The notes: generated by a model not told the origin, from the letters alone. A DNA stretch of 64,000 nucleotides from Candidatus Eisenbacteria bacterium RBG_16_71_46 (GCA_001780165.1 MFFQ01000066.1:39082-103081); one strand, 5' to 3'; shown: positions 4,486 to 21,176, counted from the stretch's first letter. A program made the numbers and translations.

Positions 4486-5832
4486 TCAATGCCGTTCGAT
4501 GCCGTACTTGCGCATCTTGCGATGCAGGTTGGTGCGGTCGATGCCCAGGTTCGCCGCCGCCTGCGTGACGTTGTGCTTGGCCTGCTCGAGCGCGCGGCGA
4601 ATCGCCTCCGCCTCGCGCCGCTCGATCTCGCCGCGGAGCCCCGCGCCGCCGTCGCGCGCCGTCGCGCTCTCGAGCCAGGTGGCGAGATCCTCGGCCCGCA
4701 CCGCGTCGCCCTCGACCAGGATCGCGGCGCGTTCCATGAGGTTGCGCAGCTCGCGCACGTTTCCCGGCCAGGGGTAGTCCTCGAGCAGTACCAGCGCCTC
4801 GTCCGAGAGCTGCTTGGGCGGTTTGCCCTCGGCCGCGCAGAACTGCGCGAGGAAGTGCCTGGCCAGCAGCGCGACGTCGCCCCGGCGCTCGCGCAGCGCC
4901 GGCACCCGCAACGGCACGACGTTCAGCCGGTAGAACAGGTCCTCACGGAAGTCTCCGCCCTCGATCGCCGCCGCGAGGTCCTTGTTGGTGGCCGAGACGA
5001 TGCGCACGTCGAAGCTGAGCGTGCGCGTGGCCCCGACCCGCTCGAGCTCGCCGGACTCGATCGCCCGCAGCAGCTTGGCTTGCGCCTCGAGCGACAGGTC
5101 GCCGATCTCGTCGAGGAAGAGCGTGCCGCCGTCCGCCGCCTCGAGGCGTCCCTTCTTGCCCTGCACCGCTCCGGTGAAGGCCCCGCGCTCGTAGCCGAAC
5201 AACTCGCTCTCGACCAGGTCGCGGGGGATCGCCGCGCAGTTGATCTTGGCGAACGGCCCGAGGGCGCGCTTCGACAGGCGGTGGATCGCCGCCGCGACCA
5301 GCTCCTTGCCGGAGCCGTTCTCGCCGCTGATCAGCACCCGTCCCTGCGACGGGGCCACGCGTCGGATCTCGGCGATCAGCGCCTCGACCGCGGGGCTGCG
5401 GCCGACGATGCCGAGATCCGCGTCCCCCGGTTGCGGCACGCTGCGCCGCAGCCGGGTCACCCGCACCGCCTCGATCACGACCTCGAGCAGGTGCACGACG
5501 TCGCCGACCGGCTTCTCGATGAAATCGAACGCGCCCCGCTGGGCGGCCTTGAACGCGTTCTCCGTCGTCTTCTCGCCGGTGACGACGATCACCGCGGTGT
5601 CCGGCGCCATCTCGCGGATGCGGGTCAGCGCGTCCAGCCCGTGCATGCCGCGCATGTTGAGATCGAGCAGCACGGCGTCCGCCTGCTTCTCCGCCAGCAG
5701 CTCGACGGCGCGGTCGCCGCTCTCGGCCTCCGAGACCCGGTGGCCCTCGTCCTCCAGCACCCCGCGCAGCTGGCGCCGGATGGTCTCGTCGTCGTCGACC
5801 ACCAGGATCTCGAGCGCACCCGTCCGGTTCAC
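4486..5832 (-). CDS. Sigma54-dependent two-component response regulator (NtrC family): receiver, AAA+ sigma54-interaction domain and Fis-type HTH.
   Basis: ILVVDDDETIRRQL...DLNMRGMHGLD receiver. GENGSGKELVAAAIH Walker A. GAFTGA motif. ESELFGYERGAFTGA. C-terminal HTH NLGIDRTNLHRKMRKYGI. GTG start overlaps the kinase stop (GTGA). Confidence 0.9.
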   Translation of the reverse strand: MNRTGALEILVVDDDETIRRQLRGVLEDEGHRVSEAESGDRAVELLAEKQADAVLLDLNMRGMHGLDALTRIREMAPDTAVIVVTGEKTTENAFKAAQRGAFDFIEKPVGDVVHLLEVVIEAVRVTRLRRSVPQPGDADLGIVGRSPAVEALIAEIRRVAPSQGRVLISGENGSGKELVAAAIHRLSKRALGPFAKINCAAIPRDLVESELFGYERGAFTGAVQGKKGRLEAADGGTLFLDEIGDLSLEAQAKLLRAIESGELERVGATRTLSFDVRIVSATNKDLAAAIEGGDFREDLFYRLNVVPLRVPALRERRGDVALLARHFLAQFCAAEGKPPKQLSDEALVLLEDYPWPGNVRELRNLMERAAILVEGDAVRAEDLATWLESATARDGGAGLRGEIERREAEAIRRALEQAKHNVTQAAANLGIDRTNLHRKMRKYGIERH

Positions 5833-7361
5833 GTCGTCACCTCCCCGCCGTCCGCGGCCACGAGCGGCAGGAGAAGGCGCGCGAGCGCCCCATCGACGCG
5901 GTTTTCGATCGTCACGGTGCCCTCGTGTTGGATGGCGATGTCGCGCACCAGGGAAAGCCCCAGCCCGCTGCCGCGCTTCTTGGTGCTGACGTAGGGCTCG
6001 AAGACGCGCCCGACGAGATCGGGGGGCACGCCCGGCCCCTGGTCCAGCACTTCGAGCACGGCGTTGCCGCCTTCGGCGCTGGTCCGCACCTCGACCTGTC
6101 CGCCCCGCGGACTGGCCTCGCAGGCGTTCAGCACCAAGTTGTGGATCGCACGGGAAAGTAGCAGAGAATCGCCCCGCACGGGCAGCCGCGACCCGGCGCG
6201 CAGGGTGACCTCGATCCCTTCGTGCTCGTGCAGTTCCACCGCCGCGCGGGCCACGTCCGTCAGGTCGAGGGTCTCGAAGCGGGGGTCGGGCAGGCGCGCG
6301 TACTCGGAGAACTGCTGGGCCAGCCGCGCGAGCTGCTCGACGCCCCCGTCGAGCGCCCCGATGCCGCTGCGCACCACGTCGCGCTGGTCCTCCGCCACCG
6401 CATCGGTACGCCGCCGCAGCCGGTGCAGCGAGAGCGACATCGGGGTGAGGATGTTCTTGAACTCGTGCGCGAGGCGGCGCGCGACCTCGCGCCATGCCGC
6501 GTCGCGCTCCGCTTCGCGCAGCGCGTCGCGCGCGTCGGCCAGGCGTCCCGTCATGGCGTTGAATGCCGTGCCCAGGGTGCGCATCTCGCGCGCGCCGCGC
6601 GGGTTCACCCGCACGGCGAGGTCGCCGGCGGCCACCTGCTCGAGCGCGCCTGCAAGATCGCGCAGCGGCCGCGCGATCGCGCGTGCGAGCACGTGGGCGA
6701 CCGCGAGCGCCAGCGCCGCCACGCCGAGCACCAGCAGCGCGACCAGCAGCCAGATCGACCGTCGCTGGACGTCCACGACGACGCCCAGGCGGCGGTAGTA
6801 GCCGAGGGCGACGCCGATGCTGTCCAGCTGCGCGAAGTACCCGGGCGGAGCCCACATCGCGGCGGCCACGGCCTCGTCCTCGCCCAGCGGACTCACCCCC
6901 GCCAGCGCTCCCCGGTCGTCGTGAATGACGCGGGTGCTGTGCAGCACGCTCGCGATCTCCGCCGAGAAGTCGGGCGGCTCGGGGAGGAGGATCCCGGGTG
7001 CGACGACCTGCTGGGTCAACGTCCAGCCGCCCGTCTTGCGGCGATAGAACTGCACCACGTCCGTCCCGGACGCGCGCAGCAGGCCCTCGGCGAGCGTGCG
7101 CCGCTCCGCGTCGCGCGCGGGGCCTCCCGTGCGCCCCACGCGGCTCGCGAGCTCGTCCGCCAGCGCCAGGACCGTGCTCTCCATGCGGATCAAGCCGTGC
7201 TTCGAGACCTCGACGGCCTCCTCCAGGGCGCGGTGGACGCCGGGGCGGAACCAGCGCTCCGCGGATCGCCCGAGCTGGTCGAGCGTGAAGAGGGTGAAGA
7301 CGAGGGTCGGGAGCAGCGCGAGGGCCAGCAGCGACAGCAGGAGTCGCGCGCGCAGGCTCAC
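5829..7361 (-). CDS. Sensor histidine kinase (TM, HAMP, HisKA, HATPase_c), NtrY-like.
   Basis: N-terminal TM segments. H-box HEFKNILTPMSLSL. C-terminal ATPase G-boxes (DQGPGVPPDLVGRVFEPYVSTKKRGSGLGLSLV). Translationally coupled to the downstream response regulator. Confidence 0.85.
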   Translation of the reverse strand: MSLRARLLLSLLALALLPTLVFTLFTLDQLGRSAERWFRPGVHRALEEAVEVSKHGLIRMESTVLALADELASRVGRTGGPARDAERRTLAEGLLRASGTDVVQFYRRKTGGWTLTQQVVAPGILLPEPPDFSAEIASVLHSTRVIHDDRGALAGVSPLGEDEAVAAAMWAPPGYFAQLDSIGVALGYYRRLGVVVDVQRRSIWLLVALLVLGVAALALAVAHVLARAIARPLRDLAGALEQVAAGDLAVRVNPRGAREMRTLGTAFNAMTGRLADARDALREAERDAAWREVARRLAHEFKNILTPMSLSLHRLRRRTDAVAEDQRDVVRSGIGALDGGVEQLARLAQQFSEYARLPDPRFETLDLTDVARAAVELHEHEGIEVTLRAGSRLPVRGDSLLLSRAIHNLVLNACEASPRGGQVEVRTSAEGGNAVLEVLDQGPGVPPDLVGRVFEPYVSTKKRGSGLGLSLVRDIAIQHEGTVTIENRVDGALARLLLPLVAADGGEVTT

Positions 7362-7386
7362 GGTGACGCCGAAACCCGGGTGGTGC

Positions 7387-8460
7387 TCATGCCCCCGCGC
7401 TCAGGCCCCCGAGCTGGCCACAGGCGGCCCAGATCTCGCCTCCGAGCGTCTGCCGCACCATGACCGCCGGGGCGCGCGGGTAGAGGCTCAACGCGAACGC
7501 CTCGACCGCCTCGGGGCTCGGGCGGAGGTAGGGGAGGCCGGGGACCGGGTTATACGGGATGAGGTTGACCTTGCTCGGCAGGTCGCGGGCGATCGCCCCC
7601 AGACGCTCGGCGTCCTCGGGGCGGTCGTTGACGCCCGCGAGCAGCGTGTACTCGAGCGTGACGCGCCGTCCGCTGCGGCGGCCGTAGTCGCGCGCCGCGG
7701 CCAGCACCACGTCCAGCGGCCAGCGGCGGTTGACCGGCACCAGCTCGTCGCGCAACGCGTCGGTGGTGGCGTGCAGCGACAGCGCGAGCCCGACCGCGAG
7801 GTCTTCCTCCGCCAGCTGTCGGATTTGGGGTGCCAGGCCGCTGGTGGAGACCGTGAGGCGGCGCGCCCCGAGGTTGAGACCCCGCGCGTCGTGCAGGATG
7901 CGGATGGCGTCCACCACCGCGCGGTAGTTCGCGAGCGGCTCGCCCATGCCCATGAAGACCAGGTTGAAGCGCTCGTCGGACCAGGCGGTGTGGTCGCCCA
8001 TGATCACGACCTGGGCCACGATCTCCTCCGGGCGCAGGTTGCGGCGCAACCCCATCAGGCCCGTGGCGCAGAACGAGCACTTGAGCGCGCATCCCACCTG
8101 GCTCGAGATGCAGAAGGTCAGGCGCCGCGGCGTGCGCATGGCCACGCACTCGACGCGCGCGCCGTCCGAGAGCTCGAGCACGAATTTGTGGGTCCGGCCG
8201 TCGGGGCTGGCGTGGAGGCTGGCGACCGGCGGCAGCGCGAGGTCGCAGTAGCGCGACAGATCACGGCGCAGGGCCCCGGGCAGGTCGGTCATCCCGTCGG
8301 CGCCGCGCTGGCGCTTGCGGTAGACCCACGAGAACAGCTGGCCGGCGCGATAGGCGGGCTCGCCGCGTTCGAGGAAGCGCTCGGCGAGCGCGGCGCGACC
8401 GAGTCCGAAAAAGCTCGGCGCCGCGGGATCGCCGCTGGCGTGGGCGGATAGGCTGGACAT
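7387..8460 (-). CDS. rlmN: 23S rRNA (adenine2503-C2)-methyltransferase RlmN (radical SAM).
   Basis: CISSQVGCALKCSFCATG radical-SAM cysteine motif. Typical RlmN length and conserved blocks (GMGEPLAN, TVSTSG, NLIPYNP). Confidence 0.9.
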   Translation of the reverse strand: MSSLSAHASGDPAAPSFFGLGRAALAERFLERGEPAYRAGQLFSWVYRKRQRGADGMTDLPGALRRDLSRYCDLALPPVASLHASPDGRTHKFVLELSDGARVECVAMRTPRRLTFCISSQVGCALKCSFCATGLMGLRRNLRPEEIVAQVVIMGDHTAWSDERFNLVFMGMGEPLANYRAVVDAIRILHDARGLNLGARRLTVSTSGLAPQIRQLAEEDLAVGLALSLHATTDALRDELVPVNRRWPLDVVLAAARDYGRRSGRRVTLEYTLLAGVNDRPEDAERLGAIARDLPSKVNLIPYNPVPGLPYLRPSPEAVEAFALSLYPRAPAVMVRQTLGGEIWAACGQLGGLSAGA

Positions 8461-10166: not shown

Positions 10167-10345
10167 TCCGGAGCGAATGAGGCGTTGACGCCTTGCCGGG
10201 GCGGGCGGATACTTGACGCAGGCTCGACACAGGAAAAGACGAACCTGAGGTCCCCGCTTCAGAAGCAAGTCCCGCTGGTCTTCCTCCGGACCACGCCGCG
10301 GGACGTCGTTTTCTCTCACCGCTAACGCGGAGGAGCAGGTAGCGC

Positions 10346-10663
10346 ATGAACGTACTCAGGAAGCTCGTGGTCACCCTGGCCCTGGTAATCGCAGTGGCCG
10401 TCGCCGCGGGCGCGCCGAGCGCGCACGCCGCGAGGGTTCATCTGGGCGTGATCACGAACAGTTACGCGGATGCCCGCCAGCCCGGCATCGGTGGCAACAG
10501 CGGCGAACCCGACGTGGGTCAGACCGCGACGCCGATCAAGACCCCGGAGATCGGATCGCGGACGCACGCGGGCGAGCTGCGGCAGCCGGACCGAGCGCGA
10601 AGCGTGCTGTTCGCGTGGAGAGGGTGGCTGTGGGCGACGCGTTTCCCGGGAATCAGGTTGTAG
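10346..10663 (+). CDS. Small secreted protein of unknown function (105 aa).
   Basis: Strong RBS (GGAGGAGCAGGTAGCGC-ATG), clear signal peptide (LVVTLALVIAVAVAAGAPSAHA). Lower-GC segment. Confidence 0.4.
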   Translation: MNVLRKLVVTLALVIAVAVAAGAPSAHAARVHLGVITNSYADARQPGIGGNSGEPDVGQTATPIKTPEIGSRTHAGELRQPDRARSVLFAWRGWLWATRFPGIRL

Positions 10664-10773: not shown

Positions 10774-13700
10774 GTGCAGCGAGCGATCCCCCCCGATCTG
10801 ACGCCTGCCCATCTTCCCTCGAAGGAAGGTGCCGAACAGCGCGAAGCGATCGGCGACCTGCATCTGGCAGCAGACAACTTTCCGGGCGCGGTGGAGGCCT
10901 ACACCGCGGCGCTCCGGGATGCCGGCCCCGGGCAGCCCACCGACCGCACCCGCGTGCTGCTCCGCCTGGCCGAGGCGCAAACCCGCCGCGGCGACTATGA
11001 GGCCGCCCTGCGCGCGCTGCGCGAGGCGCGCGGCCTCTCCCGACTGCTCCACGACCCGCGGCTCAATGCCCGCATCGCCGCGCGCATCGCCGACGCCCTG
11101 ATCGAGCAGGGCGAGTACCGGCACAGCCGGCGCTACGCGCTGTACGCCTACGCCGCCTTGCGCGACACCGACGAGCACCGCACGGTCGGCCAGGTGGCGG
11201 TGGCCCTCGGGTTGTGCGCGGTGCGTCTCGGGCGAGCGAACGAGGCGATCGAGTGGCTCCAGAACGCCGCCGCCACCTTCCGCCGCATCGACGACGTGGA
11301 CGGGCTGGTGACGGCGCTCAACAACCTCGGCCTGGTGTACAAGAACCTGCGGGAGTGGCGCGAGGCCACGCGCTTCCTCGAGCAGGCGCTGCGTCTCGAC
11401 GAGCGTGCGGGACTCTACGCGCGGATGCGCGGCCACAACCAAAACCTCGGCCTGATCCGCTTCCGCCTCGGCCAGTGGGATCTCGCGGAAGAGAACTTCC
11501 ACCAGTCGCTCAAGATCTCGCGTGAGACCGGCCACCTGCAGGGCGAGTCCGTCGCCCTGCTGGCGCTGGGCATGCTGTTCCGCCGCCGCCGGCAGCTCGA
11601 GCGCGCCGAGGAGAACTTCCGCCGCTCGCTCGCGCTCGCCGTGCAGGTGGGCGCCCAGCGCGAGTCGCTGCTCGCGCGCGAGTTCCTCGCCGAGATCGAG
11701 CTCGACCGCGGTCACGCGCAGGGTGCCAGGGAGCTGCTCGAGCCCGCGCTGCAGGAGGCGATCGAGCTGGCGCCGGAGGGCGACCTGGTGGCCGAGATCG
11801 AGATCCGCCTCGGGCTCGCCTTGCTGGCCGACTCCGCGCGCGACGCCGCCGAGATCCATCTGCTGCGGGGTGCGGCGGTGGCCGAGCAGATCGGCGACCG
11901 CATCGAGCAGGCGGTGGCCGAGCGCGGGCTGGCGCGCCTCGAGGCGATGCGCGGCAACGCCGTCGGCCTCGAGGCCCGCATCCGGGCGGCGGCCCACAGC
12001 TTCGAGCTGCTGAGCGAGACCTACGAGCTCGCCACCACGCTCGCCGCCTGGGGCGAATACCTGCTGCTGCTGCCCTCCAGCACGCGGATGCGGCTCCCGC
12101 TCGACGCGGTGATCGACTCCAACCGCCGCGGTTCCGCACTGTTCCGCCGGCTGGGCCTGACCGCGCACGCCGCCGAGGCGCTGCTGACGCTGGCGCGGCT
12201 CGAAGCCGAACGCGAGCACTACGACCAGGCGCTGTCGCTGCTGGAGCGGGCCGAGGAATGGCTCGCCGACGCGGCGCCCGCCGACGGCGGCTCGCCCGAG
12301 GCGGCGGAGCGCGCGATCGAGCTGCGGCGCCAGATCGAGCAGCAGTACGTGGCGGTGTCGCTCTCGACCTGCAACGAATTCCGCGCGCTGGAGGACGCCA
12401 ACCGACTGTTCCGCGAAACCGCCGACATGAACGGACTGCTCGCCCAGACCGTGAAGCTCGCGGTCGAGCAGAGCGGCGGCGACCGCGGGTTCGTGGCCTT
12501 CAGCTCGAACGGCAACCGGCTCGACGTGGTGGCCCAGCACGGGCTCGGGCGTGATCGCGCCCGCCGCATGATGCGCGCGATCGAAAGCGTCGGCGGCAGC
12601 CGCCTGGTCGAGAACGGCCCGCTGTTCTCGAGCCGCGTGACGGCCGATTCGCGCTTCGCCTCGGCGCTCACCGACGCGCTCGAGGGGGTGGGGTCGCTGG
12701 TGTGCGTCCCGCTCAACTTCCCGTCCCAGGCCATCGGACTGGTGTACGTGGACCGGCTCAACGACAACCTTCTCGGCGCGTTCAAGCAGCGCGAGCTCAA
12801 CCTGCTCGCGGTGCTCGCCAACAGCGCCGCGGTCGCGATCGTCGAGGCGCAGCGCTCGCTGTTGCTGATGGAGAACCGTGAGCTGCGCGACCGGCTGCGG
12901 CCGAGCCCCGCCGTCCAGCGCGTGGTCGGGCAGTCGCGCGAGATGGCCAACATCATGAACCTGCTGGCGAAGGTCGGCGACAGCAACGCCACCGTGCTCT
13001 TCATGGGCGAGACCGGCACCGGCAAGGGACTGCTCGCGCAGGTCGTGCACGAGATCTCCAACCGCCGCGACCGGGCCCTGGTGCAGGTGAACTGTGCGGC
13101 GATCCCCGAGCAACTGCTCGAGAGCGAGCTGTTCGGTCACGTGCAGGGCGCCTTCACCGGCGCCACGCGCGACAAGACCGGCCTCTTCGAGGAGGCCGAA
13201 GGCGGGACGATCTTCCTCGACGAGATCGAGAAGGTGCCCGAGTCGGTCCAGGCCAAGCTGCTCCACGTGCTCGATCGCAGCGAGATCCGCCCGGTGGGCT
13301 CGACCCGCAGCCGCAAGGTCAACACGCGGGTCATCTGCGCCACCGGCTGCGACCTTCGCGACCGCATCAAGGAGGGGCGGTTCCTCGAGGACCTCTACTA
13401 TCGCCTCAACGACATCACCGTGCGGGTGCCGACCTTGCGCGAGCGGCGCGAGGACATCCCGGTGCTGGCCCAGCACTTCCTCGCGGTGTACTCGCGACAG
13501 ATGGAGAAGGAGCTGCGGGGCTTCTCGCCCGAGGTCATGCGCGTATTCCTCGAGCACGAGTGGCGCGGCAACGTGCGCGAGCTCGAGAAGACCGTCAAGC
13601 GTATGATCGTCCTCGCCGACGACGGCGGGCTGCTCGACGTCGAGCTGCTGCCGGCCGAGACCCGCGAGGCCACGACGGCCGCGGAGCCGGCGCCCGCCGC

Positions 13701-13875
13701 GGGCGGCAGGACCCTGCGCTCCAACGTCACGCAGCTCGAGCGCCGCATGATCGCCGAGGCGCTCGATCGCAATCGCTGGAACAAGGCGCGCACCGCGCGC
13801 GAGCTCGGCCTCAGCTATCCCACGCTGCTCTCGAGAATCCGCAGCTTCAAGATCGAGCGGCGCCGTCCGGCGTAG
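10774..13875 (+). CDS. Sigma54-dependent transcriptional activator (bacterial enhancer-binding protein) with N-terminal TPR repeats, a GAF domain, an AAA+ sigma54-interaction domain and a C-terminal Fis-type HTH.
   Basis: TPR-like repeats in residues 1-480. GAF-like block (~res 540-700). GETGTGKGLLAQVVH Walker A. ESELFGHVQGAFTGA (GAFTGA). C-terminal ELGLSYPTLLSRIRSF HTH. GTG start with GAGGA RBS. Confidence 0.85.
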   Translation: MQRAIPPDLTPAHLPSKEGAEQREAIGDLHLAADNFPGAVEAYTAALRDAGPGQPTDRTRVLLRLAEAQTRRGDYEAALRALREARGLSRLLHDPRLNARIAARIADALIEQGEYRHSRRYALYAYAALRDTDEHRTVGQVAVALGLCAVRLGRANEAIEWLQNAAATFRRIDDVDGLVTALNNLGLVYKNLREWREATRFLEQALRLDERAGLYARMRGHNQNLGLIRFRLGQWDLAEENFHQSLKISRETGHLQGESVALLALGMLFRRRRQLERAEENFRRSLALAVQVGAQRESLLAREFLAEIELDRGHAQGARELLEPALQEAIELAPEGDLVAEIEIRLGLALLADSARDAAEIHLLRGAAVAEQIGDRIEQAVAERGLARLEAMRGNAVGLEARIRAAAHSFELLSETYELATTLAAWGEYLLLLPSSTRMRLPLDAVIDSNRRGSALFRRLGLTAHAAEALLTLARLEAEREHYDQALSLLERAEEWLADAAPADGGSPEAAERAIELRRQIEQQYVAVSLSTCNEFRALEDANRLFRETADMNGLLAQTVKLAVEQSGGDRGFVAFSSNGNRLDVVAQHGLGRDRARRMMRAIESVGGSRLVENGPLFSSRVTADSRFASALTDALEGVGSLVCVPLNFPSQAIGLVYVDRLNDNLLGAFKQRELNLLAVLANSAAVAIVEAQRSLLLMENRELRDRLRPSPAVQRVVGQSREMANIMNLLAKVGDSNATVLFMGETGTGKGLLAQVVHEISNRRDRALVQVNCAAIPEQLLESELFGHVQGAFTGATRDKTGLFEEAEGGTIFLDEIEKVPESVQAKLLHVLDRSEIRPVGSTRSRKVNTRVICATGCDLRDRIKEGRFLEDLYYRLNDITVRVPTLRERREDIPVLAQHFLAVYSRQMEKELRGFSPEVMRVFLEHEWRGNVRELEKTVKRMIVLADDGGLLDVELLPAETREATTAAEPAPAAGGRTLRSNVTQLERRMIAEALDRNRWNKARTARELGLSYPTLLSRIRSFKIERRRPA

Positions 13876-14091: not shown

Positions 14092-14107
14092 TGGCACGCC
14101 GGGTGCT
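14092..14107 (+). promoter_or_regulatory. Sigma54 (-24/-12) promoter P1: TGGCACGccggGTGCT.
   Basis: GG at 14093-14094 and GC at 14105-14106 with canonical 10-nt spacing. TGGCACG matches the consensus exactly. Predicted TSS ~14118. A 14-bp palindrome CGCGATTCATCGCG (14064-14077) lies just upstream. Confidence 0.5.
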
Positions 14108-14117
14108 CATGATCACC

Positions 14118-14544
14118 CAGCGGAGGGGGGGGACCTCCAAACCGTTCAGCCGCTTCGGCGGTTGGACCACCATCTGGGCTAGCCGGTTCCGCGGAGGATC
14201 CGGTCGAGGGTACGAGCCCCGGTCTTGAGACAACGCACCGTCCTCTCGGTCCGGCTAGCTTGGAGTGAATCCGATTCCCGGGGAGCGGCCCGTTCGAGTG
14301 GTTGGGACCGCGTAAGCAATCCCGGTCCAGTAGGTTACAGACCCGGAACACAGCGCACTTGGGTGTAGGACACCGGCTCGAAACGCGACGTGGGCCAACA
14401 CTGGGGGATGTCGAGGCTCTTGTCTCGTGATGCTTCGGCCGGTGTCCTCGTTTTGAGGGTGTAGCGCGTACCGCACAACCGCGACGCCGCTGCACACCCT
14501 CCAGCCGCTCCCGGAGAGTTCCCCGGGGGCGGCTTTATTCGTTT
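14118..14544 (+). ncRNA. Candidate sigma54-dependent structured ncRNA (~420 nt), or a long untranslated transcript, between P1 and an intrinsic terminator. Family not identified.
   Basis: No credible ORF on either strand. GC drops to roughly 58-60%. Two C(U)UCGG tetraloop hairpins (CCGCUUCGGCGG 14150-14161; GCUUCGGC ~14432). A 10-bp long-range helix GGACACCGGC (14368-14377) / GCCGGUGUCC (14438-14447). Bounded by promoter P1 and the terminator at 14503-14544. Confidence 0.3.
14503..14544 (+). terminator. Rho-independent terminator-like hairpin: 12-bp stem AGCCGCUCCCGG/CCGGGGGCGGCU (one G-U pair), 8-nt loop, then UUAUUCGUUU.
   Basis: Inverted repeat read directly from the sequence, followed by a T-rich tract. 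Sits ~60 nt upstream of promoter P2. Confidence 0.45.
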
Positions 14545-14605
14545 AGTCCATGCGGGCGAGGGGGATAGACTGGGTCGAGGCGGATCGGCTGGGGGCCGAT
14601 CGTGC

Positions 14606-14620
14606 GTGGCACGGGGGTTG
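14606..14620 (+). promoter_or_regulatory. Sigma54 (-24/-12) promoter P2: TGGCACGggggTTGCC, driving the lipoprotein/secreted-protein operon.
   Basis: Near-perfect match to TGGCACG-N4-TTGCW. Predicted TSS ~14632, 45 nt upstream of the ATG at 14677 (RBS GGAGG at 14663). The -12 element is embedded in a perfect 9-bp inverted repeat GCACGGGGG-TTG-CCCCCGTGC. A 7-bp inverted repeat GATCGGC-N5-GCCGATC (14582-14600) abuts the -24 element. Confidence 0.6.
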
Positions 14621-14676
14621 CCCCCGTGCGCGGACAGGGTTTTCAAGACGCCGTCCCCCGATGGAGGTCTCCTCGG

Positions 14677-15510
14677 ATGCTCAAGCTCTGGCTACCCCTT
14701 GCTTGCGGCCTGCTGCTGCTGGCGGGCTGCGAAGATCACAACACCTCACCGCGCGACCTGACCCCGCCCGCCGCACCCCGCGGGCTCTACAGCGTGACCG
14801 GGGACCGGGGGGTCCGCCTCTACTGGCTCGACAACACCGAAGCGGACGTCGAGGGCTACCGGATCTACGCGTCCCCCTGCGCGAGCGGCGACCAGTGCCC
14901 CTACACCCGGGTCGGCGTCACCACCGGCACCTCGTTCGCCGTGACCAGTCTCGTCAACGGCACGACCCGCTACTTCGCGGTGGCGGCCTACGACCGCTAC
15001 GGCAACGAGAGCGATCTCTCCTACGAGGATGTGTTCGACACGCCGCGTCCGGCGGGCACCGGGCTGCTGCTCACGAACTACAACGACGATCCGTCGCGCA
15101 GCGGGTACGACTTCTCGGACTTCACCGTCCGTCCCTGGGACGACGAGCTCACCGACATCTTCTTCGACGACGACGGACGCGTGTCGCAGATCCGCACCCC
15201 CTTCACCGACACCGACATCCAGGACGCCGGCTACGCCTCGAGCCTGGACGCGGTCGACTTCGCGCCCGGCTCGGGCTGGTCGCCCACCGGCGCGGTCGAG
15301 GCGATCGCCGGCCACTGCTACGTGGTCTGGACGTACGACGACCACTACGCCAAGTTCCGGGTCACGAGCGTCACCCCCGGTCGCGTGATCGTGGACTGGG
15401 CCTATCAGGTGGACCCCGGCAATCGCGAGCTGCGCGCGCGGCCGGCGCCGGGCGCCGAGGGCCGGGTGCGGCGGCCCCTGGCCGGGGCGCCGGGAGGAGT
15501 GCCCCGGTGA
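14677..15510 (+). CDS. Lipoprotein with a fibronectin type III-like domain.
   Basis: Lipobox LLLLAGC. YRIYASP...YFAVAAYDRYGNES FN3-like pattern. Good RBS. Confidence 0.6.
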   Translation: MLKLWLPLACGLLLLAGCEDHNTSPRDLTPPAAPRGLYSVTGDRGVRLYWLDNTEADVEGYRIYASPCASGDQCPYTRVGVTTGTSFAVTSLVNGTTRYFAVAAYDRYGNESDLSYEDVFDTPRPAGTGLLLTNYNDDPSRSGYDFSDFTVRPWDDELTDIFFDDDGRVSQIRTPFTDTDIQDAGYASSLDAVDFAPGSGWSPTGAVEAIAGHCYVVWTYDDHYAKFRVTSVTPGRVIVDWAYQVDPGNRELRARPAPGAEGRVRRPLAGAPGGVPR

Positions 15511-15530
15511 GCTGGACGCGCTGGAGCGGC

Positions 15531-16055
15531 ATGGGCGCGGGCCTGCTGGCGGTGTCGGGCTGCGCCTACGGCTACGGGATGACCCGGGCGGAGGTCGCCT
15601 ACAGCGCGTCGTCGCGGCCCGATGCCAGCTATTACTGCTATGATTGTCACGGCTACCGGTACTTCGATCCCTACTACGACTGGTGCGCCGGGCTGGGCTT
15701 CCGCTACGGCTGGTCGAGTCACCCGCGCGTGATCGCGATCTACCGCCAGCGCTACGTCGGCATCCGCGAGAAGCACCCCGAGTACGGCCGCTACCGCTAC
15801 CCGCGGAATTACCGACGGTGGGATACTTATCGGAAGCCGCAGGACTACGACGGCTGGCGGAGCCGGCAACATCAGGGCACGGTCAGGGAGAGGGAGAAAG
15901 TCAGGGACGGCGGCAAGGCCCCGCGCATCGAATCGCGAAGAGAGAAGGAGCGGGACCGCAAGGAGCCGACTGGGAAAGAGGACAAGCGCCGCGAGCGCAG
16001 GAAACCCCGCGACGACGGGTCGCGCGGTTTCCTGCAGCAAGGAGTTCAATCATGA
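15531..16055 (+). CDS. Cys/Tyr/Arg-rich lipoprotein with a CYDCH...DPYY..C motif and a basic Lys/Arg/Glu-rich tail.
   Basis: Lipobox LLAVSGC. Motif YYCYDCHGYRYFDPYYDWC is shared with the next gene. Confidence 0.5.
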   Translation: MGAGLLAVSGCAYGYGMTRAEVAYSASSRPDASYYCYDCHGYRYFDPYYDWCAGLGFRYGWSSHPRVIAIYRQRYVGIREKHPEYGRYRYPRNYRRWDTYRKPQDYDGWRSRQHQGTVREREKVRDGGKAPRIESRREKERDRKEPTGKEDKRRERRKPRDDGSRGFLQQGVQS

Positions 16056-17461
16056 GCGCACGAAGGTTGTGGGTGGTGGCGCTGGCGGCCGGGCTCGCCC
16101 TCACGGCGCCGGTTCCGGCGCACGCGGGCGATCTCTCGGTCGAGGTCTGGACCGATCGCGGCAACGATGCGGTCTACCAGCCGGGGGACGCGATGCAGAT
16201 CAAGGCGCGCGCCTCGCACGACGCCTACCTGCTGGTGTACGAGATCGACGCCGAGGGGGCGGTGCACGTGCTGTTCCCCTACGAGAGCCGGCCGGCGCTG
16301 GTGGAGGGGCGGCACACCTACCGCATCCCGAGCGATGACGCCGGCGTCGACCTGGTGGTGCAGGGCCCGGTGGGCGAGGGCTACATCGTGGCCATCGCCT
16401 CGGCGGAACCGTTCAGGTCGCTGCCGTGGTACCTGCGGCCCTACGATCCCAAGGGCGAGGCGCTGGGCTACGTCGGGCAGCCCGAGGAGGAGGATGGCAT
16501 CACCGCCGAGGGCCGCATCGTCGGCGATCCCTTCGTCGCCATGGAGCGCATCCGCCGGCGCGCGGTCGAGCGCTCGGACGACACCGAAGCGTTCGCCACG
16601 GCCTACACGTCCTACTACGTCCATCACGAGGTGCGCTATCCCCGCTACGTCTGCTACGACTGCCACCGCCCGAGCCATTGGGCGTGGTGGGACGGCTTCG
16701 ATCCCTACTACGCCACCTGCTCGGTCGTGGACCTGCGGGTGAACTGGGCCTGGTCCTGGGGCCGGCCCTACTGGGTCGGCTTCGTGCCGTACTACTGCTA
16801 CTCGCCCCGAGCGGGTCTTGGGCCGAGGTACCGCCACTGGGCCTGGAACAGGGGCTGGTACTCGTCGTGGGACGGTTGGGGCCGCTGGAACAAGCTTTGG
16901 GGAGGTCCGCTGGTGCGCTACAAGTCGCCGCCCCCGCCCGGCTACCGGCCGCCCGCGGATCGAGGCCCCGGCGGCAAGGTGCGCGAAGGCGGCGGCCGGC
17001 CGCCCGGCTTCCTCGACCGCACCGTGACCCGGACGCGCTACGGGATGCAGACGTCAGTGCCGATCGGTGCCAACCGCCGTGTCCGTGACGAAGGCTCCGA
17101 TCCTCCGCGCCGCGAGCGCGCGAGCCCGGTGCTGCGCCGTGACGCGCCCGAGCGCATGCCGGTGCGCGAAGTGCGCCGCGACGACGGTGCCGGCCACCGG
17201 GTCGGCGATGCCGGCCGCCAGCGCGATGAGGTCCGGCGCCAGCCGGCCTCGCCGGCACCCCGCGTCGAGCGCGCGCCGCCGCCGAGGGTGCAACGCGCGC
17301 CCGAGGGGCGTCCGGCGCCGCGCCAGGAGTCTCCGCGCGTCGAGCGATCCCCGGAGCACAGGGCGCCCGACCCGCAGCCCGCGCGGGAGCAAATCGACCG
17401 CGCACCGCGCGAGCGGCCTCAGCGGGAACCGGCGCGGGAGAAGAGGGGTAAGAATCGCTGA
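16052..17461 (+). CDS. Secreted protein: N-terminal beta-rich domain (possibly DUF4384-like), central Cys/Trp/Tyr-rich module (YVCYDCH...DPYYATC), and a C-terminal Arg/Pro/Glu-rich low-complexity tail.
   Basis: AAGGAG RBS. Signal peptide WVVALAAGLALTAPVPAHA. Start overlaps the previous gene's stop. Confidence 0.55.
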   Translation: MSARRLWVVALAAGLALTAPVPAHAGDLSVEVWTDRGNDAVYQPGDAMQIKARASHDAYLLVYEIDAEGAVHVLFPYESRPALVEGRHTYRIPSDDAGVDLVVQGPVGEGYIVAIASAEPFRSLPWYLRPYDPKGEALGYVGQPEEEDGITAEGRIVGDPFVAMERIRRRAVERSDDTEAFATAYTSYYVHHEVRYPRYVCYDCHRPSHWAWWDGFDPYYATCSVVDLRVNWAWSWGRPYWVGFVPYYCYSPRAGLGPRYRHWAWNRGWYSSWDGWGRWNKLWGGPLVRYKSPPPPGYRPPADRGPGGKVREGGGRPPGFLDRTVTRTRYGMQTSVPIGANRRVRDEGSDPPRRERASPVLRRDAPERMPVREVRRDDGAGHRVGDAGRQRDEVRRQPASPAPRVERAPPPRVQRAPEGRPAPRQESPRVERSPEHRAPDPQPAREQIDRAPRERPQREPAREKRGKNR

Positions 17462-17488
17462 CCCTCGAACGTCGTGACGTTGCTGCGA

Positions 17489-17514
17489 AGGCGGGGCCCA
17501 CGTGGGCCCCGCCT
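17489..17514. terminator. Perfect 26-bp palindrome AGGCGGGGCCCACGTGGGCCCCGCCT (RNA hairpin with 11-bp GC stem and ACGU loop) in the intercistronic gap. Possible attenuator, RNA-stability element or protein-binding site (CACGTG core).
   Basis: Read directly. No strong U-tract follows, so a classic terminator is uncertain. Confidence 0.4.
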
Positions 17515-17532
17515 CGTGTATGCTGGAGCCCC

Positions 17533-18456
17533 ATGACTCGCGCCACGCCCATCCTCCCGCTGGTCCTTCTGGCCGTCCTCGGCCTCGGCGTTTCGCCGGC
17601 GGTGGCCGGACCGCCCGGCTTCGCCTTCCTCGAGGTTCCCGCCGGAGCCCGTGCCTCGGCGCTCGGCGGGGCCTACGCGTCCCTCGCGCGGGGCGTGGAA
17701 GCGGCGTTCTGGAATCCGGCCGGCCTCGACGAGGTGTCGGGACTTCAGGTCGCGGGGTCGCACTACGAGTTCTTCGAAAAGCTGAGGCACGACCAGTTCG
17801 CCGCTGCGGGCCGGCTGTGGGGGGGAGGCGTGAGCGCCTCGCTGCGCGCGCTCTACACCGAGCCGATCGACGAGCGCGACGAGCTGGGGAACCTGATCGG
17901 CACGTTCGGCTCGAACGATCTCGAACTCGCGATCGGCTACGGCCGGGGGGTCGCTCCGGGGGTCGCGCTCGGCGGGCTGGCGCAGATCGTGCGCGAGCGC
18001 ATCGCCAACAGCGCGGCCACGACCTACGCCTTCGGGTTCGGGGGCTCCTGGGAGCCGGCGCCGCTGCCGGGCGTGCGCCTGAGCCTGAGCGCCCACAACC
18101 TGGGACCGGCGGCCGCGTTCACCATCGATGGGGCGCAGGGTGCTGCGGTGCCGCTGCCGTCGGCCGTCCAGACGGGCGTGTCCTTCGGAGTCGCCGCGGC
18201 CCACGGACTCCAGATGCGCGGTGCGCTGGAAAGCCGCTTCACCCGCGGGCGCGGCGGTGTGGCGATGATCGGCGGCGAACTGGCCAATGCCGGCGGAGCC
18301 GCGGTGCGACTGGGCGTGCGCGTGAACGACGACGCCTCGACCCTGAGCCTGGGCGCGGGCTACGCGCTCGAGGCCATGCGCCTCGACTACGCGTTCGTCC
18401 CGATGCGGCTCGACGTCGGCGACACGCACCGGTTCTCGTTCTCCGCGCAGTTCTGA
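17533..18456 (+). CDS. Outer-membrane beta-barrel protein (C-terminal Phe), PorV/PorQ- or FadL-like small OMP.
   Basis: Signal peptide. Gly/Ala-rich alternating strands. Terminal ...FSFSAQF. Confidence 0.55.
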   Translation: MTRATPILPLVLLAVLGLGVSPAVAGPPGFAFLEVPAGARASALGGAYASLARGVEAAFWNPAGLDEVSGLQVAGSHYEFFEKLRHDQFAAAGRLWGGGVSASLRALYTEPIDERDELGNLIGTFGSNDLELAIGYGRGVAPGVALGGLAQIVRERIANSAATTYAFGFGGSWEPAPLPGVRLSLSAHNLGPAAAFTIDGAQGAAVPLPSAVQTGVSFGVAAAHGLQMRGALESRFTRGRGGVAMIGGELANAGGAAVRLGVRVNDDASTLSLGAGYALEAMRLDYAFVPMRLDVGDTHRFSFSAQF

Positions 18457-18535: not shown

Positions 18536-19270
18536 TCAGCCTTCCGGCCAGGATTCCAGCCGGAAGCGTCCCTCCTCCAGCACGACGTAGGTGAACTGAT
18601 CGATCCAGTCGCCGAGCACGAAGAAGTCGCGGCCGTCTTCGTGCCGCTCGTAGGCGTGATGGAAGTGGCCGATCATCACCGCGTCGAAGCCCTCGGCGAA
18701 CCGCGGCAGCGCGACCTCTCGCCACATCCGCTCGCCCTCGAGCTGGCTCTCGGCTCGCGAATGGCGGGAGAGGTTGGAAAACCAGTGCGCCAGGGGAAGC
18801 CCCAGGTCCGGGTGGAGCAGGCCGTAGAGCCCGATCGCGAGCCGGCTGCGCACGACGCGCTTGAGCAGCTTGTAACCGACGTCTCCGCCCAGCAGCCCGT
18901 CGCCATGATGGAGCCAGATGCGTCGGCCCTGAAGCTCGACCGGGAGCGGCCCCTCGAGCGTGCGCAGCCCGATCTCCTCGGCGAGGAACCGACCGAGCCA
19001 GAAATCGTGGTTCCCGGTCATGCAGGTGATGTCGACGCCCGCCTCCCGAACGCGCCGGAGTGCCGCGAGCGTATGGAAATAGCGGCGTGGAATCGCGGTA
19101 CGGTACTCGTACCAGAAGTCGAACAGGTCGCCGACGACGTAGAGCGAGGCGGCGCGCCCGGGGAGCGAGGCCAGGAAGCGGTGGAGCCGCCGCACGCGGG
19201 CCGCCTCCTTCCCCGCGGGCTCCGCGCCCAGGTGGGCATCGGAGATGAAGAAGGCGACCGGCGTGAGCAT
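18536..19270 (-). CDS. lpxH: UDP-2,3-diacylglucosamine pyrophosphohydrolase LpxH (calcineurin-like phosphoesterase).
   Basis: Motifs FISDAHLG, VVGDLFDFW, GNHDFW and GHFHH are typical of LpxH. Internal ATG start (MLTPVAFFISD) chosen at 19270. Confidence 0.8.
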   Translation of the reverse strand: MLTPVAFFISDAHLGAEPAGKEAARVRRLHRFLASLPGRAASLYVVGDLFDFWYEYRTAIPRRYFHTLAALRRVREAGVDITCMTGNHDFWLGRFLAEEIGLRTLEGPLPVELQGRRIWLHHGDGLLGGDVGYKLLKRVVRSRLAIGLYGLLHPDLGLPLAHWFSNLSRHSRAESQLEGERMWREVALPRFAEGFDAVMIGHFHHAYERHEDGRDFFVLGDWIDQFTYVVLEEGRFRLESWPEG

Positions 19271-19477
19271 GGCGGCGCAGTCTAGCAACGCGTCCGCGGC
19301 CGCGCCACACAGCCGGCGGCGGAGCACGCCGGCAGGCCCGATCCCGCTTGACCGCGCGCCTCCCGCAGCCGACAGTCATCGTGGCATGTTCGAGCGCCGG
19401 TTCCGCGCGCCGTCCGGATTGCCGGCCACGATGATCGGTCGCGGAGCTTGCTGGCTTCCAATGAAGGGAGCAGGACG

Positions 19478-19672
19478 ATGGTCAGTCTCACGTGCAAACA
19501 GATGGGGATGAGCGGCTGTAACTTCAGCGCGACGGGCAAGGACGCCGAAGAGGTCAAGCAGAAGCTGCTGGCTCACGCCCGCAGCGCCCACGCGGATGTC
19601 CTCAAGGGAATGAAACCGGAGGACCTGAGCGGCCTGCAGGCGAGGCTGGATGCTCTGCTCGCCAGGCGCTAG
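19478..19672 (+). CDS. DUF1059 family small protein.
   Basis: MVSLTCKQMGMSGCNFSATGKD... matches DUF1059 small proteins. RBS GAAGGGAG. Confidence 0.6.
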   Translation: MVSLTCKQMGMSGCNFSATGKDAEEVKQKLLAHARSAHADVLKGMKPEDLSGLQARLDALLARR

Positions 19673-19826
19673 GTTCCGCCCGAGACGCCCGATTCTCGAG
19701 GGGCTCGGTCGGTTTCGGCTGCGAATTCTCCCGCGGTCACCGCTCGGCTGTCGCCGCCACTCGCCCGGCGCCCGGGCTTCTCGGACGGCACCCAGCCCGG
19801 GGCCGAGCCACCGAAATCGCGCCGGC

Positions 19827-21176
19827 GTGGCGCTGGCGCTGGCGCTCACGATACTGGCCCCGCCGCTCGCGCGCGGGGCCGCTCCACCCGCGGGGCCGCG
19901 CCCGGAAAACGTGGTGATCATGATTCCGGACGGCTGCGGGCCCGCCACCCTGGTCCTCGCCCGGCTCGCGCGAGGACGGCCGCTCTCGCTCGACAGCATC
20001 CTCGTGGGCGCCGTCGAGACCGGATCGTCCAGCTCGCGCATCACCGACTCCGCGGCGGGTGCCACCGCCTACGCTTCAGGCGTGAAGACCGCCAATCGCG
20101 TGGTGGGGATGGATCCGGCCGGGAACCCGGTCGAGACCCTGATGGAGGCCGCGGCGTCGCGCGGCATGGCGACGGGTTTCATCGTCAAGAGCAGGGTAAC
20201 GGACGCGACGCCCGCCGCGTTCGTCGCGCACGTGCGCCGACGCTCGCAGGAAGACGAGATCGCGGTGCAGGAACTCGCCCATCGCGTGAACCTCATCATG
20301 GGCGGCGGGCTGGACCGGTTCCTGCCCGAGCCCGCGGGAGGCAGGCGCGCCGACGGGCGGGATCTCGTGGCCGAGGCCCGCGGCCGCGGTGACCAGGTCG
20401 TGCTCGACCGCGCGGAGTTCGACGGCGACCTGCGCCTTCCCCTGCTCGCGCTGTTCGCGCCGGCCGAGCTGCCCTACGAGATCGACCGCGATCCGAAGCA
20501 GGCGCCGGGCCTGGTCGAGATGGTCCGCCGGGGGCTGCCCCTGCTCGCCCGCGAGCCGGGCGGGTTCCTGCTCGTGATCGAGGGCAGCCGTATCGACCAC
20601 GCCGCCCACGCCAACGATCCGGCGAGCCACGTCCGCGAAGCGCTCGAGTTCGACGACACCGTGCGCGAGGTCCTCGCCTTCGCCCGCCGCGACGGCCGCA
20701 CCCTGGTCGTGGGGGCGGCCGATCACGAGACCGGCGGCCTGTCGCTGGGGAGGCGCGTGGGCGACACCCCGCTCGAGGGCGTGTACCCCGAATCCCTGAT
20801 GGCGGTGCGCTGTTCGGCCGAGCGCATGGCCGATTCGATCCGCGCCGGTCACCCGGCGCGGGAGCTGGTGGAGCGTGAGACCGGCCTGCACCTCACCTTG
20901 GAGGAGGCGGGGATGCTCGACCGCGCGCTCCCGGGTCGCCGACTCGCGGAGGCCATTGGGGAGATCGAGAGCCGGCACGCGGCGCTCGGGTGGAGCACCT
21001 GGGGCCACACCGCCATCGACGTCGGGCTCTACGCCTTCGGTCCCGGCAGCGACCGTTTCCGCGGCGTGCTCGACAACACCGAGGTCGGGCGCCGCATCGC
21101 CGAATCGCTGGACCTGCAGGTCGGCGGGTCGCGGAGCCCGCGCGCCCCGGGGAGCGGCGGCCCCGCGACACCATGA
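19827..21176 (+). CDS. phoA: Alkaline phosphatase (PhoA family), secreted.
   Basis: VVIMIPDGCGPAT (catalytic-region metal site) and TDSAAGATAYASGVKT (active-site Ser block). DHAAHAND and DHETGG metal-ligand motifs. Start codon uncertain (GTG 19827 suggested). Confidence 0.75.
   Translation: MALALALTILAPPLARGAAPPAGPRPENVVIMIPDGCGPATLVLARLARGRPLSLDSILVGAVETGSSSSRITDSAAGATAYASGVKTANRVVGMDPAGNPVETLMEAAASRGMATGFIVKSRVTDATPAAFVAHVRRRSQEDEIAVQELAHRVNLIMGGGLDRFLPEPAGGRRADGRDLVAEARGRGDQVVLDRAEFDGDLRLPLLALFAPAELPYEIDRDPKQAPGLVEMVRRGLPLLAREPGGFLLVIEGSRIDHAAHANDPASHVREALEFDDTVREVLAFARRDGRTLVVGAADHETGGLSLGRRVGDTPLEGVYPESLMAVRCSAERMADSIRAGHPARELVERETGLHLTLEEAGMLDRALPGRRLAEAIGEIESRHAALGWSTWGHTAIDVGLYAFGPGSDRFRGVLDNTEVGRRIAESLDLQVGGSRSPRAPGSGGPATP

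What the first reader, a model, noticed from the sequence alone, without database searches (positions are those of the whole stretch)
14677..18456. Sigma54-driven envelope operon whose two middle genes share an unusual CYDCH-x(3-9)-DPYY-x(1-2)-C module
P2 precedes four co-oriented, tightly spaced genes: an FN3 lipoprotein, a Cys/Tyr-rich lipoprotein, a large secreted protein and an OMP beta-barrel. The second and third carry the same Cys/Tyr/Trp-rich motif (YYCYDCHGYRYFDPYYDWC and YVCYDCHRPSHWAWWDGFDPYYATC). Both end in highly charged Arg/Lys/Glu/Pro low-complexity tails. The motif looks like a small disulfide or metal-binding knot. I cannot assign it to a known family. The adjacent bEBP gene and the sigma54 promoter imply signal-controlled expression.
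Basis: seen in the sequence. Interest (0 to 1): 0.5.

Follow-up and report, generated by a model that had tools for sequence, protein, structure and literature searches.

The report
Undescribed CXXCH mini-domain in envelope operon
Two neighbouring exported proteins of an uncultured soil and groundwater bacterium (Candidatus Eisenbacteria) share a small, strictly conserved Cys/His module that no database describes and that carries the signature for covalent haem attachment; the operon, its sigma-54 promoter, its activator gene and a previously unnoticed structured RNA are conserved across the phylum.

Summary
Four co-oriented genes follow an exact sigma-54 promoter: a lipoprotein, a small lipoprotein (g2), a DUF4384 protein (g3) and a PorV/PorQ-family barrel (g4). 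g2 and g3 share a homologous ~42-residue module (hhalign 95.9%, E 6e-9).

The core C-x-[DE]-C-H ... DPY-x3-C is kept in all 234 distinct homologues and in distant relatives. No Pfam, NCBIfam, PDB or fold match exists. Only 65 cluster representatives out of 1.84 billion proteins match.

The layout activator gene, promoter, g1, (g2), g3, g4 recurs in most of 83 genome loci. g2 is present in about a third.

Best reading (confidence about 0.4): a lineage-restricted mono-haem c mini-domain on outer-membrane-associated proteins with basic disordered tails, induced through a TPR-GAF activator. Main rival: a degenerate zinc-ribbon-like knuckle. Haem binding and the physiological role are untested.

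In passing: the 800-bp spacer upstream holds a ~425-nt structured RNA with its own conserved sigma-54 promoter, a terminator and covariation. It has no Rfam family and occurs once per locus in 67 loci.

The parts
10774..13875 (+). bEBP gene (1033 aa): TPR repeats, GAF, sigma-54 AAA+ domain with GAFTGA, Fis-type HTH. No receiver domain.
   Evidence: Pfam Sigma54_activat 1e-64, TPR_12, GAF, HTH_8. GAFTGA at 13147. 62-78% identical and syntenic in the Eisenbacteria loci where the gene is complete, 41% in the two distant loci L077 and L078.
14092..14106 (+). P1, a sigma-54-type promoter (TGGCACGCCGGGTGC) in front of the RNA element. It lies outside the finding's coordinates.
   Evidence: TGGCA[CT]-N5-GTGC found at the same relative place in 47 distinct loci.
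14119..14545 (+). Candidate structured ncRNA of about 425 nt, with two conserved domains and an intrinsic terminator (stem 14503-14534 plus T-run).
   Evidence: Conserved blocks. RNAalifold: 34 pairs with 8 compensatory in the 5' domain and 21 pairs with 12 compensatory in the 3' domain. Terminator. CM R1 hits once per locus in 67 of 84 sources. No Rfam match.
14607..14621 (+). P2, the sigma-54 promoter (TGGCACGGGGGTTGC) of the operon. The predicted 5' UTR is about 44 nt with a GGAGG Shine-Dalgarno sequence at 14661-14665.
   Evidence: Only exact consensus match in the window. Present upstream of g1 in 64 of 66 loci. UTR lengths and SD.
14677..15510 (+). g1: lipoprotein (277 aa) with a weak FN3-like N-terminal domain and an unassigned C-terminal domain.
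   Evidence: Lipobox LLLAGC. fn3 18.4 bits, below the cut-off. Found in nearly all loci that have upstream sequence.
15507..16055 (+). g2: small lipoprotein (182 aa). It has the CXXCH module, an Arg/Tyr-rich helical core and a basic tail.
   Evidence: 240 homologues, none with a Pfam domain. Alignments A1 and A6. AF2 core pLDDT 73-92. No fold match.
15624..15749 (+). g2 copy of the shared module (residues 40-81). The core CYDCHGYRYFDPYYDWC is at 15636-15686.
   Evidence: hhalign-aligned stretch. Translation.
16052..17461 (+). g3: secreted protein (469 aa). It has an Ig-like DUF4384 domain (about residues 30-190), the CXXCH module, a Trp-rich stretch and a roughly 150-residue Arg/Pro/Glu tail.
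   Evidence: PF14326 E 9e-19. More than 475 homologues. Alignments A2 and A5. AF2: N-terminal domain pLDDT above 85, module below 50.
16640..16813 (+). g3 copy of the shared module (residues 197-254). The core CYDCHRPSHWAWWDGFDPYYATC is at 16652-16720.
   Evidence: hhalign. Translation.
17533..18456 (+). g4: outer-membrane beta-barrel of the PorV/PorQ family (307 aa).
   Evidence: NCBIfam NF033709, 110.4 bits against a cut-off of 90. The PorQ and PorV equivalog models score below their cut-offs. Follows g3 in 64 of 83 loci; most of the rest end at a contig edge.

Best explanation
The module is a lineage-restricted cofactor-binding mini-domain of exported proteins. It is most likely a covalent mono-haem c site.

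Proposed sequence of events:
1. g2 (a lipoprotein) and g3 (Sec-secreted) cross the inner membrane unfolded.
2. The cytochrome c maturation machinery attaches haem to the two Cys of C-x-[DE]-C-H. The His serves as the proximal ligand.
3. The invariant DPY Tyr or the third Cys is the candidate distal ligand.
4. The haem-bearing module sits between an Ig-like DUF4384 domain (g3) or a lipid anchor (g2) and a long, net-positive disordered tail. The tail would tether the proteins to anionic envelope polymers.
5. Together with lipoprotein g1 and the PorV/PorQ-like barrel g4 they would form an outer-membrane-associated assembly.
6. The assembly is made only when the neighbouring TPR-GAF sigma-54 activator fires. 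That activator also drives an adjacent structured RNA from a second sigma-54 promoter.

Shown here: the homology of the two modules, the invariance of Cys, Cys, His, DPY and Cys, the export signals, the operon structure, and the conservation of the promoters and the activator.

Inferred only: haem attachment, complex formation, the role of the tails and the physiological role. I rank redox or electron transfer or haem handling at the outer membrane first, with low confidence.
For: - CXXCH with invariant C, C and H in all 234 distinct g2/g3 segments.
- The same core is kept in 58 of the 65 representative hits; the other seven are frameshifted or degenerate family members, or repeat-protein hits.
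- It is also kept in the most distant loci, including one labelled Glassbacteria. The X1 residue varies freely (Y, N, A, S, D, E, G).
- Both proteins carry export signals, and their operon partners are a lipoprotein and an outer-membrane barrel.
- System I recognises little more than CXXCH, and 12-residue peptides are matured (PMC3601427). An exported, conserved CXXCH is therefore a default substrate.
- Mature g2 has exactly three Cys. That cannot be an all-disulfide knot.
- AF2 places CYDCH at the start of a helix in g2. It cannot fold the g3 module (pLDDT below 50) although the neighbouring domain scores above 85. This fits a cofactor-dependent fold.
- Precedent exists for tiny, lineage-endemic CXXCH domains inside non-cytochrome proteins: magnetochrome (PMC3971196).
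- Eisenbacteria MAGs are reported to encode Cyc2 and cytochrome c oxidase (PMC9769843).
- Operon and regulation: 4-bp overlaps; no terminator-like site between the RNA element's terminator (14503-14534) and position 18700; P2 in 64 of 66 loci; synteny.
Against: - No Met or second His is shared by both families as an obvious distal ligand.
- The best PDB profile hits, though non-significant, are zinc ribbons (RPB12: YICGECH..DPIRCRECGYRIMY, E 0.15-0.98), not cytochromes.
- Cytochrome c maturation genes could not be checked in this genome. None lie in the 1.49 Mb of fetched loci, and there are no multi-CXXCH ORFs there.
- The invariant acidic X2 residue and the invariant third Cys are not explained by haem attachment alone.
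Confidence: 0.4

Rival explanations
1. The module is a degenerate zinc-ribbon or rubredoxin-like knuckle. It holds a metal ion (Zn, Fe or Cu) through three Cys plus one other ligand, or it is fixed by a disulfide in the oxidising periplasm. In this reading it is a small structural or oligomerisation unit, not a redox cofactor site. Because each copy lacks the fourth Cys, two copies (g2 with g3, or g3 with g3) could complete a site between chains.
For: - The profile of the module finds RPB12/RPABC4 zinc ribbons as its best PDB hits. The matched pattern runs Y-x-C-x-E-C-H ... DP..C..G-Y-R-I (E 0.15-0.98).
- An aromatic residue at -2 and an acidic X2 are typical of zinc knuckles (my own knowledge).
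- A 6-residue insertion between the two halves is tolerated, as in a hairpin loop.
- The low-confidence AF2 model of g3 shows short strands around the motif.
Against: - The PDB hits are not significant.
- The second knuckle has one Cys only.
- The His adjacent to the second Cys is invariant in all members. It is not needed in zinc ribbons and is sterically unsuited to ligate the same ion (my own knowledge).
- Cys-ligated zinc sites are rare in exported proteins (my own knowledge).
- AF2 usually folds zinc ribbons confidently (my own knowledge) but did not here, and it predicts a helix at CYDCH in g2.
- An exported CXXCH would be a substrate for haem attachment anyway (PMC3601427).
Confidence: 0.27
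2. The CXXC pair is a redox-active dithiol/disulfide, as in thiol-disulfide oxidoreductases, or the precursor of a cross-linked Cys/Tyr/Trp-derived cofactor. The aromatic residues and the third Cys would take part in the chemistry.
For: - In the g2 model the first Cys sits at the N-terminus of a helix, as in CXXC oxidoreductases (my own knowledge).
- The surroundings are very rich in Tyr, Trp and Arg: g2 core 19% Tyr, g3 module 11% Trp.
- Tyr and the third Cys are invariant.
Against: - No thioredoxin-like fold or family match.
- No maturation enzyme, such as a radical SAM or a quinone-cofactor maturase, lies in the conserved operon.
- This reading does not explain the invariant His.
Confidence: 0.1
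3. The resemblance between the two genes is a chance or compositional effect of Cys/Tyr-rich, low-complexity, high-GC sequence and has no specific function.
For: Both proteins are compositionally biased and the genome is about 70% GC.
Against: - hhalign E 6e-9.
- Invariance across hundreds of homologues that are only about 50% identical overall.
- The motif is kept in relatives at 30-40% identity.
Confidence: 0.01

Closest known systems
c-type cytochromes, especially the magnetochrome mini-domain of MamP/MamE/MamT/MamX
   Same: An exported CXXCH with invariant Cys, Cys and His. A very small, lineage-endemic module embedded in multi-domain envelope proteins that are not otherwise cytochromes (PMC3971196).
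   Different: No sequence or fold similarity to any cytochrome family. An extra invariant DPY...Cys element. One copy per protein rather than tandem copies. Haem binding is not shown.
Zinc ribbon of RNA polymerase subunit RPB12/RPABC4
   Same: The pattern Y-x-C-x-[DE]-C-H, a spacer, D-P, Cys, then G-[FY]-R-[IVY] aligns over about 36 residues.
   Different: E-values of 0.15-0.98 are not significant. The fourth Cys is missing. The proteins are exported, not cytoplasmic. His is invariant here but not in RPB12 (my own knowledge).
DUF4384 (PF14326) proteins
   Same: g3 residues 41-120 match the family above its threshold. The model is an Ig-like beta-sandwich.
   Different: The family has no known function. 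The CXXCH module, the Trp-rich stretch and the basic tail are not part of the Pfam domain.
PorV/PorQ outer-membrane proteins of the type IX secretion system
   Same: g4 passes the NCBIfam PorV/PorQ subfamily cut-off. A related genome encodes a cargo-like protein with a T9SS-type C-terminal domain next to the operon.
   Different: g4 scores below the cut-offs of the PorV, PorQ and PorV2 equivalogs. g2 and g3 end in low-complexity tails, not a T9SS C-terminal domain.
Porin-cytochrome modules (Cyc2, MtrAB-type)
   Same: An outer-membrane barrel encoded together with exported CXXCH proteins. Cyc2 is reported in Eisenbacteria MAGs (PMC9769843).
   Different: This is an analogy only. Here the barrel is PorV-like and a separate gene, and each partner has one CXXCH. 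No homology was tested or found.
Sigma-54-dependent small RNAs encoded next to their activator (GlmY with GlrR, Qrr with LuxO)
   Same: A non-coding RNA gene with a -24/-12 promoter lies directly beside a bEBP gene, in a locus of envelope genes. The comparison with GlmY and Qrr rests on my own knowledge.
   Different: The RNA is about 425 nt, far larger. It has no sequence or structure match in Rfam, and no target is known.

Membership tests
c-type cytochrome | C-X-X-C-H haem attachment motif | tested here: met
   Invariant in 234 distinct homologues and in distant relatives.
c-type cytochrome | Export to the periplasmic side of the membrane | tested here: met
   Lipobox in g2 and Sec signal peptide in g3, read from the sequences. 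No dedicated predictor was available.
c-type cytochrome | Covalently bound haem | not testable with these tools
   Needs haem staining, pyridine haemochrome assay or mass spectrometry.
c-type cytochrome | Conserved distal axial ligand (Met or His) | tested here: inconclusive
   No Met or His is shared by both families. The candidates are the invariant DPY Tyr and the third Cys.
c-type cytochrome | Sequence or fold similarity to a known cytochrome c family | tested here: not met
c-type cytochrome | Cytochrome c maturation genes (ccm or ccsBA) in the same genome | not tested
   None in the window or in 1.49 Mb of loci. Only indirect literature is available.
Zinc ribbon | Two CXXC knuckles giving four metal ligands | tested here: not met
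   Only one CXXC plus a single downstream Cys is conserved.
Zinc ribbon | Significant similarity to a zinc-ribbon family | tested here: inconclusive
   The best PDB hits are RPB12 ribbons, but E is 0.15-0.98. No Pfam hit.
DUF4384 (PF14326) | Match above the Pfam gathering score | tested here: met
   g3 scores 67.8 bits against a cut-off of 27. All listed homologues are annotated PF14326.
PorV/PorQ family (NF033709) | Match above the NCBIfam cut-off | tested here: met
   g4 scores 110.4 bits against a cut-off of 90.
T9SS PorV or PorQ proper (equivalogs NF033710, NF033711) | Match above the equivalog cut-off | tested here: not met
   PorQ 69.3 bits against 220; PorV 17.6 bits against 250.
Fibronectin type III domain (g1) | Match above the Pfam gathering score | tested here: not met
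   18.4 bits against a cut-off of 25, E 0.0025. FN3-like at best.
Sigma-54-dependent operon | -24 GG / -12 GC promoter (TGGCAC-N5-TTGC) upstream of the first gene | tested here: met
   Exact match at 14607-14621, unique in the window. Conserved in 64 of 66 loci.
Sigma-54-dependent operon | Cognate bEBP with an AAA+ domain and GAFTGA | tested here: met
   The gene is syntenic in all loci with enough upstream sequence.
Sigma-54-dependent operon | rpoN in the genome; transcription start and co-transcription shown | not testable with these tools
   rpoN is not in the window. Co-transcription is inferred from the 4-bp overlaps and the lack of internal terminators.
Any Rfam RNA family (for the upstream RNA element) | Match at the gathering score or at a low E-value | tested here: not met
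   No hit at gathering threshold. Only E of 1.9 or worse in the permissive scan.

The most novel reading that the evidence does not exclude
g2 and g3 found a new class of minimal mono-haem c domain with unusual His/Cys or His/Tyr ligation. Together with lipoprotein g1 and the PorV-like barrel they would form a split porin-cytochrome device for redox sensing or electron or haem transfer across the outer membrane. The device would be a phylum-wide hallmark of Eisenbacteria and near relatives. It would be switched on by a dedicated TPR-GAF sigma-54 activator together with a new roughly 425-nt structured RNA that acts in the same regulon.
Probability: 0.12. Interest if true: 0.8.

Novelty: new variant of a known kind. 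Interest (0 to 1): 0.55.

Why it matters
- Eisenbacteria are widespread in soils and sediments, have no cultured representative that I know of, and have almost no characterised genes (my own knowledge).
- This locus is one of their most conserved lineage-specific features. It is present once in about a hundred species-level genomes, with activator, promoters, RNA and envelope genes in fixed order.
- If the module binds haem, it adds a new minimal cytochrome c domain beside magnetochrome. It would also show that motif-counting surveys miss or misread single-CXXCH envelope proteins.
- If it is a three-Cys knuckle, it is a rare case of a zinc-ribbon-like unit adapted to the periplasm.
- Either outcome is directly testable with one recombinant protein.
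- The RNA gives a clean new case of a large sigma-54-dependent ncRNA paired with its activator.

Tried and rejected

2. A confident structure of the g3 module. AF2 with 120 sequences leaves residues 196-320 below pLDDT 50.

3. Evidence for cytochrome c maturation or other cytochromes nearby. There are no multi-CXXCH ORFs and no WWD-motif genes in the window plus 164 loci, 1.49 Mb in total. An apparent two-CXXCH ORF in L055 is an out-of-frame artefact.

4. The idea that the RNA's invariant G-rich loop pairs with a C-run in the g1 leader. A C-run is present in only 2 of 56 leaders.

5. A shared activator-binding motif upstream of P1 and P2. Ungapped promoter-anchored profiles show nothing beyond the promoters themselves.

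6. Literature on DUF4384 and Eisenbacteria. No functional data were found.

7. Chance as an explanation for the motif. It is rejected.

Full report
**What is there**

The window is about 70% GC. It matches Candidatus Eisenbacteria bacterium RBG_16_71_46, because g2 is 100% identical to its protein A2W00_03545.

On the + strand lie the following features:
- A 1033-aa bEBP gene at 10774-13875, with TPR, GAF, Sigma54_activat and HTH_8 domains and a GAFTGA motif.
- An 800-bp spacer.
- g1 at 14677-15510, g2 at 15507-16055, g3 at 16052-17461 and g4 at 17533-18456.

g1/g2 and g2/g3 overlap by 4 bp, and g3/g4 are 71 bp apart. The only terminator-like site between 13800 and 18700 lies upstream of P2. 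The next gene downstream is convergent.

TGGCACGGGGGTTGC at 14607-14621 is the only exact sigma-54 consensus match in the window. It leaves a leader of about 44 nt with a GGAGG Shine-Dalgarno sequence.

**The four proteins**

| Gene | Description | Evidence |
|---|---|---|
| g1 | Lipobox; sub-threshold FN3 match | |
| g2 | Lipobox; no family match | |
| g3 | Signal peptide; DUF4384 domain at E 9e-19 | |
| g4 | PorV/PorQ subfamily cut-off passed (110 against 90 bits); PorV and PorQ equivalog cut-offs not reached | |

**The motif is real and homologous**

- g3 has more than 475 homologues and g2 has 240. Nearly all named ones come from Eisenbacteria.
- All 234 distinct segments contain exactly one C-x-D-C-H.
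- The g2 family reads CYDCHGYRYFDPYYD[WYF]C. The g3 family reads C[YN]DCH-x11-DPY[YF]-x2-C.
- Profile-profile comparison of the families gives probability 95.9%, E 6e-9 over 42 columns. The aligned stretch extends past the motif into G-F-R-Y-x-W / D-F-R-V-N-W.
- A 52-position profile of the module, searched against 1.84 billion representatives, finds only 65 proteins at E of 0.001 or better.
- 58 of those 65 keep the C-x-[DE]-C-H core. Most, including all that are not truncated just after it, also keep the downstream [DE]P[YF]-x3-C. They show the same two architectures, each with a net-positive tail.
- Loci at 29-41% identity, including one labelled Glassbacteria, keep the motif too.
- Tails are net positive in 120/120 g3 homologues and 119/119 g2 homologues, although their sequences do not align.

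**What the module could be**

It contains CXXCH, the haem c attachment signature. The arguments for haem are as follows:
- Both proteins are exported.
- System I recognises little more than CXXCH (PMC3601427).
- His is invariant while X1 varies.
- Mature g2 has three Cys, which excludes a pure disulfide knot.
- Magnetochrome shows that minimal, lineage-endemic CXXCH domains exist (PMC3971196).
- Eisenbacteria MAGs are reported with Cyc2 and cytochrome c oxidase (PMC9769843).

The arguments against haem are as follows:
- No cytochrome family, structure or fold matches.
- No shared Met or His distal ligand exists.
- Maturation genes could not be checked.
- The best PDB profile hits, though non-significant, are RPB12 zinc ribbons, which share Y-x-C-x-E-C-H ... 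DP..C..GYRI.

AF2 gives a moderately confident helical core for g2, with CYDCH at the start of a helix. It gives no confident fold for the g3 module.

I rank the readings as follows: haem c about 0.4, a zinc-ribbon-like knuckle about 0.27, and a redox dithiol or cross-linked cofactor about 0.1.

**Conservation of the unit**

Three long contigs show the order RlmN, (Ppx), a roughly 100-aa ORF, bEBP, an 850-900 bp spacer, g1, (g2), g3, g4, then a convergent metallophosphatase, DegP and an amidase.

In 83 genome loci the counts are:
- bEBP, g1, g3 and g4 together: 52 loci.
- g2 present: 26 loci.
- Most gaps in the pattern are contig ends.

A distant Eiseniibacteriota chromosome (L078) keeps bEBP, g1, g2 and g3. 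There g3 is followed by an LVIVD-repeat protein with a T9SS-type C-terminal domain.

P2 occurs in 64 of 66 loci and P1 in 47.

**The RNA, outside the given coordinates**

- P1 (14092-14106) is followed from about 14119 by blocks of up to 20 invariant bases. These are shared among species whose proteins are 50-70% identical.
- The element ends at a terminator, 14503-14534 plus a T-run.
- RNAalifold finds 34 pairs with 8 compensatory in the 5' domain. This includes a 14-bp closing helix with CG-to-GC swaps.
- In the 3' domain it finds 21 pairs with 12 compensatory.
- A covariance model hits once per locus, on the + strand between bEBP and g1, in 67 of 84 sources.
- A 19-mer from the RNA finds 81 metagenome stretches. 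Of the 77 that can be assessed, 76 have the same gene context.
- No Rfam family matches.

**Verdict**

The module is an undescribed, phylum-restricted domain whose chemistry is open, with haem c leading. The physiological role of the operon is unknown.

Noticed in passing
window 14092-14545 (+): A roughly 425-nt structured RNA candidate with its own conserved sigma-54 promoter (P1) and an intrinsic terminator, lying between the bEBP gene and the operon. It shows covariation in two domains, occurs once per locus in 67 loci, and matches no Rfam family.
   Followed up: yes
window 10343-10663 (+): A roughly 106-aa ORF directly upstream of the bEBP gene with no Pfam match. An ORF of 94-102 aa sits at the same place in L001-L003. 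It may be part of the regulatory module.
   Followed up: partly
loci L001, L002 and 55 others (between g1 and g3); L128: g2 is missing from about two thirds of the loci: 26 of 83 have it, and the g1-g3 gap shrinks to 109-245 bp where it is absent. One metagenome locus (L128) has bEBP, the RNA, g3 and g4 but no g1.
   Followed up: partly
L078 8855-12277 (+): In a distant Eiseniibacteriota chromosome the gene after g3 is not the PorV-like barrel. It is a 1140-aa LVIVD-repeat protein with a FlgD_ig (T9SS-type) C-terminal domain and a marginal PorZ N-terminal propeller hit.
   Followed up: partly
L089, L099, L117, L138: The 19-mer GGTCGAGGGTACGAGCCCC from the RNA's invariant inner hairpin also occurs in four metagenome contigs that lack bEBP and g1. 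There only the hairpin region scores weakly with the covariance model. The context is unknown.
   Followed up: partly
window about 4350-7400 (-): A second sigma-54 activator (GAFTGA at about 5184) lies next to a HAMP/HisKA/HATPase_c histidine kinase (5829-7400). This is an NtrB/NtrC-like pair unrelated to the finding.
   Followed up: no
window 18536-19327 (-), 19650-21176 (+): Downstream neighbours are a convergent calcineurin-like metallophosphatase, conserved at this position in other loci, and an alkaline phosphatase. In other genomes DegP/HtrA and an Amidase_3 gene follow instead.
   Followed up: partly
window 14122-14138 (+): The RNA begins with an invariant hairpin, GGAGG-GGGGGGA-CCUCC. 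It carries both a Shine-Dalgarno-like and an anti-Shine-Dalgarno-like pentamer. Its meaning is unknown.
   Followed up: no
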